A DNA stretch of 64,000 nt from Escherichia coli O127:H6 str. E2348/69 (GTDB lineage: Bacteria > Pseudomonadota > Gammaproteobacteria > Enterobacterales > Enterobacteriaceae): NCBI RefSeq assembly GCF_000026545.1, contig NC_011601.1, one strand, 5' to 3'. The position numbers and the translations under genes were made by a program. Shown here in pieces: positions 14,164-21,979 of the stretch (positions are counted from its first letter, which is position 1; each line of letters opens with the position of its first letter). A model generated the notes under the pieces. The model was not told where the DNA came from. It made no database searches and saw only the letters and a list, made by a program, of their open reading frames with translations.

Positions 14164-14257
14164 GATTGACTCCGCAAGTTTGTATTCAAAAACTGCTCAG
14201 TGAGAAATGTAAAAACCATGTTAAACATGCCAGTGATGCAAAGGTAGTGCAAGAGCT

Positions 14258-18617: not shown

Positions 18618-19043
18618 TTACCAGTGGCCCATACCCATATGACCGCCACCACCGCAGCCGCCGTAACCCATGCCCATTCCGGTACCGCGCGGAATACCCG
18701 CTTCAGCCATCGCAATATCTCGTTTCACCCGTAACTCATCTAACGACTGACGCAAATTCTCCATCTCTTTGGCGACCGCGTTAATTTTGTTGCTATCCGG
18801 TGGGTTCGCGGCTAACAGGGCATTGTATTCATAACGCTTTGTCACCAGTTGCTGTTGCAGTGCGCTGCTTTGAGCGTAAAAGTCATTATGGATTTTCTGC
18901 CACGCTGTCTGTTGTTCGCTGGTCAAAGGCGCGGCATTTTGCTGCCACATACCGTGTCCGCCGTGAGCAAATGCCGATGTCGATCCCATCGCCATTGCTG
19001 AAAGCGCCATCATTACCAGGGCAATTTTCGTGTTCCGTTTCAT
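18618..19043 (-). CDS. zraP: zinc resistance-associated periplasmic protein
   Basis: 141-aa protein from internal Met (MKRNTKIALVMMALSAMAMGSTSAFAHGGHGMWQQ...) with Gly/His/Met-rich C-terminus; track ORF N-extension rejected. Confidence 0.9.
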   Translation of the reverse strand: MKRNTKIALVMMALSAMAMGSTSAFAHGGHGMWQQNAAPLTSEQQTAWQKIHNDFYAQSSALQQQLVTKRYEYNALLAANPPDSNKINAVAKEMENLRQSLDELRVKRDIAMAEAGIPRGTGMGMGYGGCGGGGHMGMGHW

Positions 19044-19077
19044 GGTTAATCCTCCAGTGGTTGTCTTACTTCGGGTA

Positions 19078-19095
19078 TTGCATCTTTCGTGCCAA
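19078..19095 (-). promoter_or_regulatory. sigma54 (-24/-12) promoter of zraP
   Basis: Reverse complement reads TTGGCACgaaagATGCAa (GG-N10-GC spacing) about 35-50 bp upstream of the zraP start codon. Confidence 0.75.
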
Positions 19096-19136
19096 CGGCG
19101 AAACGCTGATATGACGGGTAATCTGGCATGATAAAC

Positions 19137-19182
19137 GAGTAAAAATGACCCGCCTGTTGTGGGTAGCGAGTCATTTTTACTC
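19137..19182. promoter_or_regulatory. palindromic enhancer (probable ZraR binding sites) between zraP and zraS
   Basis: Near-perfect inverted repeat GAGTAAAAATGAC-N20-GTCATTTTTACTC centred between the two divergent sigma54 promoters. Confidence 0.7.
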
Positions 19183-19233
19183 ATTGAAACTTAAGCCTTT
19201 GTGTTACAGCGCAGGGTAAGCGCTGATAAAAGA

Positions 19234-19249
19234 TGGCATGATTTCTGCT
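19234..19249 (+). promoter_or_regulatory. sigma54 (-24/-12) promoter of zraSR
   Basis: TGGCATgatttcTGCTg with GG-N10-GC spacing about 30 bp upstream of the zraS start. Confidence 0.7.
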
Positions 19250-19280
19250 GTCAGAAAGGGATGAGCAGGCAAAGAAGAAG

Positions 19281-20657
19281 ATGCGTTTTATGCAACGTTC
19301 TAAAGACTCCTTAGCTAAATGGTTAAGCGCGATCCTCCCCGTGGTCATTGTTGGGCTGGTGGGGCTGTTTGCGGTGACAGTGATTCGTGATTATGGGCGC
19401 GAGACTGCCGCCGCCAGACAAACGCTGCTGGAAAAAGGCAGTGTACTTATCCGTGCTCTCGAATCCGGCTCGCGCGTCGGCATGGGGATGCGCATGCATC
19501 ATGCGCAGCAGCAGGCATTACTGGAAGAAATGGCCGGGCAGCCTGGTGTACGTTGGTTTGCGGTCACGGATGAACAAGGAACAATCGTGATGCATAGCAA
19601 CTCCGGCATGATGGGAAAACAGCTTTATTCCCCGCAGGAAATGCAGCAGTTACATCCGGGAGATGAAGAAGCGTGGCGGCGGATCGATAGCGCAGACGGC
19701 GAGCCTGTTCTGGAAATTTATCGCCAGTTTCAACCGATGTTTGCTGCTGGAATGCACCGGATGCGCCATATGCAGCAGTATGCCGCGACACCACAAGCAA
19801 TTTTTATCGCTTTCGACGCCAGTAACATTGTGAGTGCTGAAGATCGTGAGCAGAGAAACACCCTGATTATCCTCTTCGCCCTGGCGACGGTCTTGCTGGC
19901 AAGCGTGTTGTCATTCTTCTGGTATCGCCGATATCTGCGCTCGCGGCAGCTATTGCAGGATGAAATGAAGCGCAAAGAGAAGCTGGTGGCACTGGGGCAT
20001 CTGGCGGCAGGCGTTGCCCACGAAATCCGTAACCCACTTTCCTCGATTAAAGGGCTGGCGAAATACTTTGCCGAACGCGCGTCAGCAGGGGGAGAAGCGC
20101 ATCAACTGGCGCAGGTGATGGCGAAAGAAGCCGACCGTTTAAACCGCGTGGTAAGCGAGTTGCTGGAACTGGTTAAGCCAACGCATCTGGCTTTGCAGGC
20201 GGTGGAGCTCAACACGCTGATTAACCACTCATTACAGCTGGTAAGCCAGGATGCAAACAGCCGGGAGATCCAGTTACGCTTTACCGCCAACGACACATTA
20301 CCGGAAATTCAGGCCGATCCGGACAGGCTGACTCAGGTCCTGTTGAATCTCTATCTCAATGCTATTCAGGCGATTGGTCAGCATGGCGTGATTAGCGTGA
20401 CGGCCAGCGAAAGCGGCGCGGGCGTGAAAATCAGCGTTACCGACAGCGGTAAGGGAATTGCGGCAGATCAGCTTGAAGCCATCTTCACCCCGTACTTCAC
20501 CACCAAAGCCGAAGGTACCGGACTGGGGCTGGCGGTCGTGCATAATATTGTTGAACAACACGGTGGTACAATTCAGGTCGCAAGCCAGGAGGGAAAAGGC
20601 GCAACGTTCACCCTCTGGCTTCCGGTCAATATTACGCGTAAGGACCCACAAGGATGA
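19281..20657 (+). CDS. zraS: sensor histidine kinase (zinc/lead responsive two-component system)
   Basis: 458-aa ORF with N-terminal TM segment, H-box (HEIRNPLSSIKGL) and ATPase G-boxes (DSGKGI, GTGLGL). Confidence 0.92.
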   Translation: MRFMQRSKDSLAKWLSAILPVVIVGLVGLFAVTVIRDYGRETAAARQTLLEKGSVLIRALESGSRVGMGMRMHHAQQQALLEEMAGQPGVRWFAVTDEQGTIVMHSNSGMMGKQLYSPQEMQQLHPGDEEAWRRIDSADGEPVLEIYRQFQPMFAAGMHRMRHMQQYAATPQAIFIAFDASNIVSAEDREQRNTLIILFALATVLLASVLSFFWYRRYLRSRQLLQDEMKRKEKLVALGHLAAGVAHEIRNPLSSIKGLAKYFAERASAGGEAHQLAQVMAKEADRLNRVVSELLELVKPTHLALQAVELNTLINHSLQLVSQDANSREIQLRFTANDTLPEIQADPDRLTQVLLNLYLNAIQAIGQHGVISVTASESGAGVKISVTDSGKGIAADQLEAIFTPYFTTKAEGTGLGLAVVHNIVEQHGGTIQVASQEGKGATFTLWLPVNITRKDPQG

Positions 20658-21979
20658 CGCACGATAATATCGATATTCTGGTGGTGGATGATGACATTAG
20701 CCACTGCACTATTTTGCAGGCTTTGCTGCGCGGCTGGGGCTATAACGTCGCGCTGGCGAACAGCGGGCGACAGGCGCTGGAGCAGGTGCGGGAACAGGTT
20801 TTTGATCTTGTGCTTTGCGATGTGCGAATGGCAGAGATGGACGGCATCGCCACGCTCAAAGAGATCAAAGCGTTAAATCCGGCAATTCCGGTACTGATTA
20901 TGACCGCGTACTCCAGCGTCGAGACAGCGGTAGAGGCGTTGAAAACCGGGGCGCTGGATTATCTCATCAAGCCGCTGGATTTCGATAACCTGCAGGCGAC
21001 GCTGGAAAAGGCGCTCGCACATACGCACAGTGTTGACGCTGAAACGCCTGCGGTGTCTGCCAGCCAGTTCAGTATGGTCGGTAAAAGCCCGGCGATGCAA
21101 CACCTGCTCAGTGAAATCGCCCTCGTCGCGCCATCGGAAGCCACGGTGCTGATCCACGGCGATTCCGGCACCGGTAAAGAGCTGGTCGCCAGGGCGATTC
21201 ACGCCAGTAGCGCACGGAGTGAAAAACCACTGGTAACGCTCAACTGTGCGGCACTCAACGAATCCTTGCTGGAATCTGAATTGTTCGGTCACGAAAAAGG
21301 GGCGTTTACCGGAGCCGACAAACGGCGGGAAGGGCGCTTTGTTGAGGCGGACGGCGGCACGCTGTTTCTCGATGAAATTGGCGATATCTCGCCGATGATG
21401 CAGGTTCGTCTGCTGCGTGCGATTCAGGAGCGCGAAGTTCAGCGTGTCGGCAGCAACCAGACCATCTCGGTTGATGTCCGGCTGATTGCGGCGACTCATC
21501 GCGATCTTGCCGCAGAGGTGAATGCCGGGCGTTTTCGCCAGGATCTCTACTATCGCCTGAACGTGGTGGCGATTGAAGTTCCGTCGCTGCGTCAGCGGCG
21601 GGAAGATATTCCTCTGCTGGCTGGCCATTTTCTTCAGCGCTTTGCCGAACGTAATCGCAAGGCGGTAAAAGGCTTTACGCCCCAGGCGATGGATCTGCTG
21701 ATTCATTACGACTGGCCGGGAAATATTCGTGAACTGGAAAACGCGGTGGAACGGGCGGTGGTGCTGCTGACCGGGGAATATATTTCCGAACGCGAGCTGC
21801 CGCTGGCGATTGCCAGTACGCCGATCCCGCCGGTACAAAGTCAGGATATTCAGCCGCTGGTGGAAGTCGAAAAAGAAGTGATTCTGGCGGCACTGGAGAA
21901 AACGGGCGGCAACAAAACCGAAGCCGCCCGTCAGTTAGGGATCACGCGTAAAACGCTATTGGCAAAACTGTCGCGTTAG
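20654..21979 (+). CDS. zraR: sigma54-dependent response regulator
   Basis: 441-aa ORF: receiver domain (DDD...K), AAA+ sigma54-interaction domain with GESGTGKE-like Walker A (GDSGTGKE) and GAFTGA motif, C-terminal HTH; overlaps zraS stop. Confidence 0.94.

What the first reader, a model, noticed from the sequence alone, without database searches (positions are those of the whole stretch)
19044..19280. Divergent sigma54 promoters with a central palindromic enhancer between zraP and zraSR
Both -24/-12 elements are readable (TGGCAC-N5-ATGCA toward zraP; TGGCAT-N5-CTGCT toward zraS), and they flank a 46-bp near-perfect palindrome (GAGTAAAAATGAC…GTCATTTTTACTC). This is the expected ZraR-dependent architecture and gives precise coordinates for the regulatory sites.
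Basis: partly seen in the sequence, partly recalled or inferred. Interest (0 to 1): 0.25.

Follow-up and report, generated by a model that had tools for sequence, protein, structure and literature searches.

The report
Known zraP–zraSR sigma-54 control region

Summary
The window is E. coli chromosome and is 100% identical to EPEC E2348/69 at this locus. Coordinates 19044-19280 are exactly the zraP/zraS intergenic spacer.

Both -24/-12 elements are present as described:
- TGGCACGAAAGATGCA, minus strand, 19094→19079.
- TGGCATGATTTCTGCT, plus strand, 19234-19249.

A matrix built from 40 other ChIP-verified E. coli sigma-54 sites ranks them first and second among all positions in the 64 kb.

The "46-bp palindrome" (19137-19182) is two 17-bp inverted arms matching at 16 of 17 positions. 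They flank a 12-bp non-palindromic spacer. The single mismatch is a SNP private to the E2348/69 lineage.

Across 18 orthologous spacers from at least five genera, both promoters, both arm cores and the 12-bp spacer length are invariant. The surrounding sequence diverges.

Published data on K-12 agree. Sigma-54 ChIP-seq peaks carry these motifs. ZraR gSELEX picks this spacer as its single target. The strongest ZraR ChIP-exo peak maps inside the repeat.

I found no mapped transcription start. In passing, the ZraS periplasmic sensor domain has two deeply divergent alleles.

The parts
18618..19043 (-). zraP coding sequence (141 aa periplasmic Metal_resist / CpxP-like protein), the main regulated target
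   Evidence: ORF list; RefSeq annotation of the identical E2348/69 locus; Pfam PF13801, E = 1.8e-23
19079..19095 (-). zraP sigma-54 promoter 17-mer TTGGCACGAAAGATGCA (GG 19093-19092, GC 19081-19080)
   Evidence: Sequence. Weight-matrix score 17.3 bits, rank 2 in the window. K-12 ChIP-seq peak OS38 has the same motif with one change in the N5 spacer. Conserved in 18 of 18 orthologous spacers.
19068..19068 (-). Predicted zraP transcription start, giving a 25-nt leader (inferred, not mapped)
   Evidence: Bonocora rule: 19 nt downstream of the motif centre. This reproduces their 'distance 25' for zraP.
19137..19153 (.). Left arm of the ZraR enhancer, GAGTAAAAATGACcCGC. The C at 19150 is the only mismatch to the right arm.
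   Evidence: K-12 has T at this position, giving perfect 17/17 arms. The C is private to the E2348/69 lineage.
19154..19165 (.). 12-bp spacer between the arms (CTGTTGTGGGTA): length invariant, sequence unconstrained
   Evidence: In 18 of 18 orthologues the spacer is 12 bp with unrelated sequences.
19166..19182 (.). Right arm of the ZraR enhancer, GCGAGTCATTTTTACTC
   Evidence: ZraR ChIP-exo peak_9 (signal/noise 73) maps to window 19141-19173 and spans both arms' inner parts.
19233..19249 (+). zraSR sigma-54 promoter 17-mer ATGGCATGATTTCTGCT (GG 19235-19236, GC 19247-19248)
   Evidence: Sequence. Weight-matrix score 17.9 bits, rank 1 in the window. Identical to K-12 ChIP-seq peak OS39. Near-invariant in 18 orthologues.
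19260..19260 (+). Predicted zraSR transcription start, giving a 21-nt leader (inferred, not mapped)
   Evidence: Same rule as for zraP.
19281..20657 (+). zraS sensor histidine kinase (458 aa allele)
20654..21979 (+). zraR, the sigma-54 enhancer-binding response regulator (receiver + AAA+ with GAFTGA + Fis-type HTH)
   Evidence: Pfam. PDB 1OJL ZraR matches residues 141-441, E = 3e-178. The HTH is invariant across the genera sampled.

Best explanation
This is the native control region of the E. coli ZraPSR envelope-stress and zinc-responsive system.

Proposed sequence of events:
1. Sigma-54 RNA polymerase sits in closed complexes on two divergent -24/-12 promoters. One faces zraP and one faces zraSR.
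2. When ZraS phosphorylates ZraR, ZraR dimers occupy the two 17-bp inverted half-sites (consensus G-R-GTAAAAATGAC-Y-CG) between the promoters.
3. ZraR assembles there into an AAA+ ring.
4. By DNA looping over about 90-100 bp, the ring uses ATP hydrolysis to open either promoter.

The single enhancer therefore drives both the effector/feedback gene zraP and, autoregulatorily, zraSR.

Shown here or in cited data: the motifs, their statistical distinctness, their conservation, sigma-54 occupancy (K-12, Salmonella), ZraR occupancy of the repeat (K-12 ChIP-exo), and ZraR-dependent expression.

Inferred: the exact transcription starts (19068 and 19260), one dimer per arm, ring assembly and looping (by analogy with NtrC), and the assumption that the strain's two SNPs inside the sites are neutral.
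For: Identity of the locus and its proteins.

The sigma-54 sites rank 1 and 2 of all window positions with an independent matrix.

The repeat far exceeds shuffles: 16 matches against a maximum of 12.

Phylogenetic footprint over 18 spacers (Escherichia, Salmonella, Citrobacter, [Enterobacter] lignolyticus, Kosakonia):
- Both promoters are near-invariant, 13 of 15 arm positions are invariant, and the 12-bp spacer length is invariant. Flanks fall to an alignment mean of about 65% column identity.
- The enhancer-to-zraS distance is fixed at 99.5-100.5 bp.
- The enhancer-to-zraP distance is 90.5-91.5 bp in Escherichia and 102.5-103.5 bp elsewhere. That is an 11-bp, one-helical-turn difference, which keeps the face of the helix.

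The ZraR HTH is invariant across the same genera.

Literature:
- Sigma-54 ChIP-seq peaks OS38/OS39.
- Salmonella ChIP-chip.
- RpoN holoenzyme gSELEX peak in this spacer.
- rpoN-dependent expression.
- ZraR gSELEX single target.
- ZraR ChIP-exo peak_9 inside the repeat.
- ΔzraR lowers zraP by 12.7 and zraS by 3.2 log2 units in zinc.

The spacer contains no sigma-70-like promoter, terminator or Rfam element.
Against: No experimentally mapped transcription start was found for either promoter. EcoCyc status was 'predicted' according to Bonocora et al..

All experimental data are from K-12 or Salmonella, not this strain. This strain differs by a T->C in the left arm (19150) and a G->A in the N5 spacer of the zraP promoter.

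No IHF consensus lies between the enhancer and either promoter, so how the short loop forms is unexplained.

A second ZraR ChIP-exo peak lies over the zraP start codon (window 19028-19053), where there is no half-site.

The original footprint paper (Leonhartsberger et al. 2001, PMID 11243806) is not held. A 2016 review lists the ZraR enhancer sequence as 'not known'.
Confidence: 0.95

Rival explanations
1. The zraS-side (or zraP-side) motif is a sigma-54 binding site that never fires. Many such sites exist in E. coli, and zraSR would then be transcribed from another promoter.
For: Bonocora et al. stress that many of their 135 sites may be non-productive. The zraS site has lower ChIP occupancy (FAT 9, against 39 for zraP). 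zraS is unchanged in ΔzraR without zinc, so some basal ZraR-independent expression must exist.
Against: The zraS site is the top-scoring site in the window. It is near-invariant in 18 orthologues while the flanks diverge. It lies 21 nt from the start codon. zraS drops 3.2 log2 units in ΔzraR under zinc and is rpoN-dependent. No sigma-70-like promoter was found in the spacer.
Confidence: 0.03
2. The inverted repeat is not a ZraR site. It would instead be a structural or other-factor element: a cruciform, a hairpin terminator, the site of a different regulator, or a repeat-element remnant.
For: A 17-bp stem could fold as a hairpin. The primary footprint paper could not be read. A review lists the ZraR enhancer as unknown.
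Against: It lies upstream of both predicted starts, so it is not transcribed from them. No terminator-like site or Rfam match was found. The sequence of the 12-bp centre is unconstrained but its length is fixed, which fits a protein-spacing signature. The ZraR ChIP-exo maximum falls inside it. ZraR gSELEX selects this spacer. The half-site occurs nowhere else in the 64 kb with fewer than 2 mismatches, so it is not a dispersed repeat.
Confidence: 0.02
3. The extra TGGCATGAT at 19124-19132, an exact copy of the zraS -24 element, is a third, alternative or decoy sigma-54 site.
For: It is an exact 9-bp direct repeat of the zraS -24 region.
Against: The -12 position reads GA, not GC. It is not among the top weight-matrix scores. 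It is absent in E. albertii and in all non-Escherichia orthologues.
Confidence: 0.02

Closest known systems
E. coli K-12 zraP-zraSR (hydHG) intergenic region (Leonhartsberger et al. 2001, J Mol Biol 307:93; sigma-54 ChIP-seq sites OS38/OS39 of Bonocora et al. 2015)
   Same: The same locus and the same architecture. The spacer is 237 bp with no indels. The zraS promoter and the right arm are identical.
   Different: There are six substitutions in the spacer:
- T->C at 19150, which breaks one pair of the 17-bp repeat.
- G->A in the N5 spacer of the zraP promoter.
- Two changes in the unconstrained 12-bp centre.
- Two more between the zraP promoter and the repeat.
My recollection that the 2001 paper describes 'inverted repeats separated by a 14-bp spacer' could not be checked.
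Salmonella Typhimurium zraP-hydHG divergent sigma-54 promoters (Samuels et al. 2013)
   Same: The same two motifs (TGGCACGGAAGATGCA and TGGCATGATCTCTGCT) and the same inverted arms with a 12-bp spacer.
   Different: The enhancer lies 11 bp (one helical turn) further from the zraP promoter than in Escherichia.
AtoC enhancer upstream of atoDAEB
   Same: AtoC is an NtrC-family response regulator that activates a sigma-54 promoter. Its site is a palindrome made of two inverted copies (40 bp, 2 x 20 bp).
   Different: The AtoC arms abut with no spacer and serve one promoter. The sequences are unrelated.
NtrC sites at glnAp2 and NorR sites at norR-norVW
   Same: Multiple dyad sites about 100 bp upstream of a sigma-54 promoter nucleate an AAA+ oligomer. 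NorR also sits in a divergent spacer (NtrC geometry from general knowledge).
   Different: Only one of the divergent nor promoters is sigma-54 dependent, and NorR uses three GT-N7-AC sites. Here both promoters are sigma-54 dependent and share one two-arm enhancer.

Membership tests
Sigma-54 (RpoN) -24/-12 promoter | GG and GC dinucleotides exactly ten bases apart, in a TGGCAC-N5-TTGCW context | tested here: met
   Both sites: one mismatch to the consensus for zraP, two for zraS.
Sigma-54 (RpoN) -24/-12 promoter | Score within the range of experimentally bound sites and above background | tested here: met
   17.9 and 17.3 bits. The training-set median is 15.9. The sites rank 1 and 2 in 64 kb. 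Shuffles give 0.1-0.2 such hits per 64 kb.
Sigma-54 (RpoN) -24/-12 promoter | Correct orientation and short distance to the downstream gene | tested here: met
   Predicted leaders of 25 nt (zraP) and 21 nt (zraS).
Sigma-54 (RpoN) -24/-12 promoter | Occupancy by sigma-54 holoenzyme | not testable with these tools
   Reported for K-12 (ChIP-seq; gSELEX) and Salmonella at the orthologous motifs. Not measured in this strain.
Sigma-54 (RpoN) -24/-12 promoter | Mapped transcription start 11-13 nt downstream of the -12 GC | not tested
   No mapped start was found in the held literature. EcoCyc status is 'predicted' according to Bonocora Table 1.
Sigma-54 (RpoN) -24/-12 promoter | Expression depends on rpoN and on an enhancer-binding protein | not testable with these tools
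   Literature for K-12: rpoN dependence; ΔzraR lowers zraP by 12.7 and zraS by 3.2 log2 units.
Enhancer (UAS) of an NtrC-family activator: ZraR site | Dyad-symmetric site or sites about 80-150 bp upstream of the start | tested here: met
   The 17-bp arms match at 16 of 17 positions. The centre lies 91.5 bp from the predicted zraP start and 100.5 bp from the predicted zraS start.
Enhancer (UAS) of an NtrC-family activator: ZraR site | The cognate activator, with a DNA-binding HTH, is encoded at the locus | tested here: met
   ZraR has Response_reg, Sigma54_activat and HTH_8. It matches PDB 1OJL.
Enhancer (UAS) of an NtrC-family activator: ZraR site | Bound by ZraR | tested here: met
   I mapped published K-12 ChIP-exo peak_9 (4201786-4201818) onto the repeat (K-12 4201782-4201827, window 19137-19182). 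gSELEX supports binding to this spacer. The experiment itself is on K-12, not this strain.
Enhancer (UAS) of an NtrC-family activator: ZraR site | Site and spacing conserved with the regulator across species | tested here: met
   18 of 18 spacers keep both arm cores and the 12-bp gap. The HTH is invariant.
Enhancer (UAS) of an NtrC-family activator: ZraR site | IHF site between enhancer and promoter (frequent accessory feature, not defining) | tested here: not met
   No WATCAANNNNTTR match with up to 1 mismatch in 19044-19280.

The most novel reading that the evidence does not exclude
The enhancer may be better read as two separate ZraR-dimer sites than as one palindrome.
- Each arm would be a 15-bp imperfect internal dyad, GRGT-N7-ACYC.
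- The two sites sit three helical turns apart (31 bp), as at NtrC's glnAp2.
- In the right arm, positions 2 and 14 change together in 5 of 8 variant sequences.
- Symmetry within an arm is kept more often than symmetry between the arms at the variable position: intact in 12 of 18 left arms and 15 of 18 right arms, against 9 of 18 between arms.

In addition, Escherichia has lost exactly one helical turn (11 bp) between the enhancer and the zraP promoter. This suggests face-of-helix-dependent activation without IHF.
Probability: 0.4. Interest if true: 0.2.

Novelty: already known. Interest (0 to 1): 0.08.

Why it matters
The finding matters little beyond annotation. It gives base-precise coordinates for the two sigma-54 promoters and the ZraR enhancer in an EPEC-type genome. 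It also yields a cross-genus half-site consensus, G-R-GTAAAAATGAC-Y-CG, repeated in inverted orientation after a fixed 12-bp gap. At least one review lists this enhancer as unknown. The zraP promoter is used in zinc and lead biosensors, so knowing which positions are invariant and that spacing changes come in whole helical turns has some practical use.

Tried and rejected
1. A loose consensus search for TGGCAC-N5-TTGCW gave fewer hits than chance (33 against 40). I replaced it with a weight matrix.
2. The IHF consensus, sigma-70 promoter scan, terminator scan and Rfam search found nothing in the spacer.
3. The second TGGCATGAT (19124-19132) and the AARCGCTGATA direct repeats (19101 and 19218) are confined to Escherichia. 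I rejected them as core elements.
4. Other half-site-like sequences in the window (36199, 46815) have two mismatches each and no partner. I did not follow them up; with about one such match expected by chance, I treat them as chance matches.
5. The third-best sigma-54 score (14237-14253, CTTGCAC...) lacks the GG and is at shuffle level.
6. Leonhartsberger 2001 is not held. Full-text searches for the half-site sequence and for 'HydG + inverted repeats' found nothing.
7. The genome-collection scan with ZraP peptides returned only 12 loci because the patterns were E. coli-specific. I added Salmonella, C. rodentium, C. freundii and [Enterobacter] lignolyticus through protein look-ups.

Full report
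**What the window is.**
- A 501-bp query across the finding is 100% identical to E. coli E2348/69. It matches 5,420 of 5,426 complete E. coli genomes, always at zraP/zraS.
- The ORFs and the RefSeq annotation of the identical locus give this order: hupA, yjaH, zraP (18618-19043, minus strand), zraS (19281-20657), zraR (20654-21979), purD.
- Pfam confirms the three Zra proteins. ZraR carries a receiver domain, a sigma-54 interaction AAA+ domain and a Fis-type HTH. It matches the solved ZraR structure 1OJL.
- The finding's coordinates, 19044-19280, are exactly the 237-bp intergenic spacer.

- On the minus strand, TGGCACGAAAGATGCA runs from 19094 down to 19079.
- On the plus strand, TGGCATGATTTCTGCT runs from 19234 to 19249.
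- A loose consensus search says nothing by itself: 33 matches with up to two mismatches in 64 kb, against 40 expected.
- I therefore built a weight matrix from the 40 other intergenic-sense sigma-54 ChIP-seq sites of K-12, listed in Bonocora et al. 2015 Table 1. zraP and zraS were left out.
- With this matrix, the two claimed sites are the two best-scoring positions on either strand of the whole window: 17.9 and 17.3 bits, with 14.6 next. Shuffled windows give 0.1-0.2 hits at those scores.

**The repeat.**
- GAGTAAAAATGAC (19137-19149) and GTCATTTTTACTC (19170-19182) are perfect 13-bp inverted arms.
- Extended, the arms are 17 bp (19137-19153 and 19166-19182) and match at 16 of 17 positions, with 12 bp between them.
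- In 500 shuffles of the spacer, the best repeat with one mismatch allowed never exceeded 12 matches.
The central 12 bp has no self-complementarity.
- The one arm mismatch (C at 19150) is a strain peculiarity. K-12 has T there, giving perfect 17/17 arms.
- The K-12 71-mer around the repeat matches at ≥99% identity in 4,354 of 5,419 genomes. The window's 71-mer does so in only 3.
- The closest other haplotype (strain noe1104) keeps T.

**Conservation.**
- I collected 18 orthologous spacers: five Escherichia lineages besides the window and K-12, Salmonella, eight Citrobacter, [Enterobacter] lignolyticus, Kosakonia and one metagenome-assembled genome.
- The alignment shows three islands of near-total conservation in a background averaging about 65% column identity. 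The islands are the zraP promoter, the two arms and the zraS promoter.
- 13 of 15 arm positions are invariant in both arms. Only positions 2 and 14 vary, and they vary by transitions. The window's SNP falls on position 14, which is C in 6 of 18 left arms. It is therefore probably neutral.
- The 12-bp gap is 12 bp in all 18 spacers, with unrelated sequences.
- The enhancer centre lies 99.5-100.5 bp from the predicted zraS start in every spacer.
- The distance to the predicted zraP start is 90.5-91.5 bp in Escherichia and 102.5-103.5 bp in all other genera. The difference is 11 bp, or 1.05 helical turns.
- The ZraR HTH (…[22 protein letters not shown]…) is invariant across the genera for which it was available.

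**Published experiments.**
- Sigma-54 ChIP-seq in K-12 reports peaks OS38 (TTGGCACGGAAGATGCA, zraP) and OS39 (ATGGCATGATTTCTGCT, zraS).
- Zhao et al. list both among known sigma-54 promoters with rpoN-dependent expression.
- Salmonella ChIP-chip finds the orthologous sites.
- RpoN-holoenzyme gSELEX has a peak in this spacer.
- ZraR gSELEX finds this spacer as its single high-affinity target, with 81 of 86 clones.
- ZraR ChIP-exo finds peaks upstream of zraP and zraSR. In the supplementary table, the strongest ZraR peak (peak_9, signal/noise 73) is K-12 4201786-4201818.
- The spacer has no indels between K-12 and the window. That peak therefore maps to window 19141-19173, inside the repeat (K-12 4201782-4201827).
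- Deleting zraR lowers zraP by 12.7 and zraS by 3.2 log2 units in zinc.

**Mechanism.**
- The best explanation is the standard one for an NtrC-family activator. Sigma-54 polymerase waits in closed complexes at both promoters. Phosphorylated ZraR binds the two arms, assembles an AAA+ ring and opens either promoter by looping.
- Shown: the sites, their conservation, and occupancy in K-12.
- Inferred: the starts at 19068 and 19260, taken by the rule of 19 nt from the motif centre; one dimer per arm; and looping.
- I found no IHF consensus, sigma-70-like promoter, terminator or Rfam element in the spacer.

**What could not be done.**
- No mapped transcription start was found. Bonocora et al. mark both promoters as only predicted in EcoCyc.
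- The original footprint paper is not held. My memory of its abstract ("inverted repeats separated by a 14-bp spacer") is unverified.
- A 2016 review lists the ZraR enhancer sequence as not known.

**Verdict.** The feature is already known, and interest is low. The most interesting by-product lies outside the finding: the dimorphism of the ZraS sensor domain, described under things noticed in passing.

Noticed in passing
window 19390-19900 (zraS codons ~40-200): The ZraS periplasmic sensor domain exists as two deeply divergent alleles.
- The window's ZraS (458 aa) and K-12's (465 aa) are about 60% identical in this domain, with a 21-bp indel. The flanks, the whole promoter region and zraR are 93-100% identical at DNA level.
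- 4,183 complete E. coli genomes carry the window-type allele (at least 95% identity). 1,236 carry the K-12 type (60-80%). None fall between.
- Both types occur in other Escherichia species. The K-12 type is found in E. albertii and E. whittamii. The window type is found in Escherichia sp. MOD1.
- The two alleles are as far from each other as either is from Salmonella or Citrobacter.
This points to an old, possibly balanced or recombined, polymorphism in the signal-sensing part of the kinase.
   Followed up: partly
window 19150: The T->C substitution in the left enhancer arm is private to the E2348/69 lineage. The identical 71-mer occurs in 3 of 5,407 genomes, against 4,354 of 5,419 for the K-12 version. 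It falls on the one arm position that also varies T/C between genera.
   Followed up: yes
window 19096-19136, compared with L008-L014 and L018-L021: Escherichia has 11 bp fewer (one helical turn) between the zraP promoter and the enhancer than Salmonella, Citrobacter, Kosakonia and [Enterobacter] lignolyticus. The zraS side differs by at most 1 bp.
   Followed up: yes
window 19028-19053: A second published ZraR ChIP-exo peak (peak_8, signal/noise 34, K-12 4201673-4201698) maps over the zraP ribosome-binding site and start codon, +16 to +41 from the predicted start. No half-site-like sequence is there. It could be a looping cross-link or an artefact of very high transcription.
   Followed up: partly
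window 19199-19219: A weaker conserved block (TTTGTGT ... CAGGGT), about -61 to -41 from the predicted zraS start, persists across genera. It matches neither the ZraR half-site nor IHF. Its function is unknown.
   Followed up: no
window 19101-19132 and 19218-19242: Escherichia-specific direct repeats: AARCGCTGATA (19101 and 19218) and TGGCATGAT (19124 and 19234). The upstream copy mimics the zraS -24 element but has no -12 GC and is not conserved outside Escherichia.
   Followed up: partly
window 19046-19174 (-): Some RefSeq genomes annotate a 42-aa 'hypothetical protein' (WP_001298656.1) inside the spacer. It overlaps the zraP promoter and the left enhancer arm and is almost certainly a spurious gene call.
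   Followed up: partly
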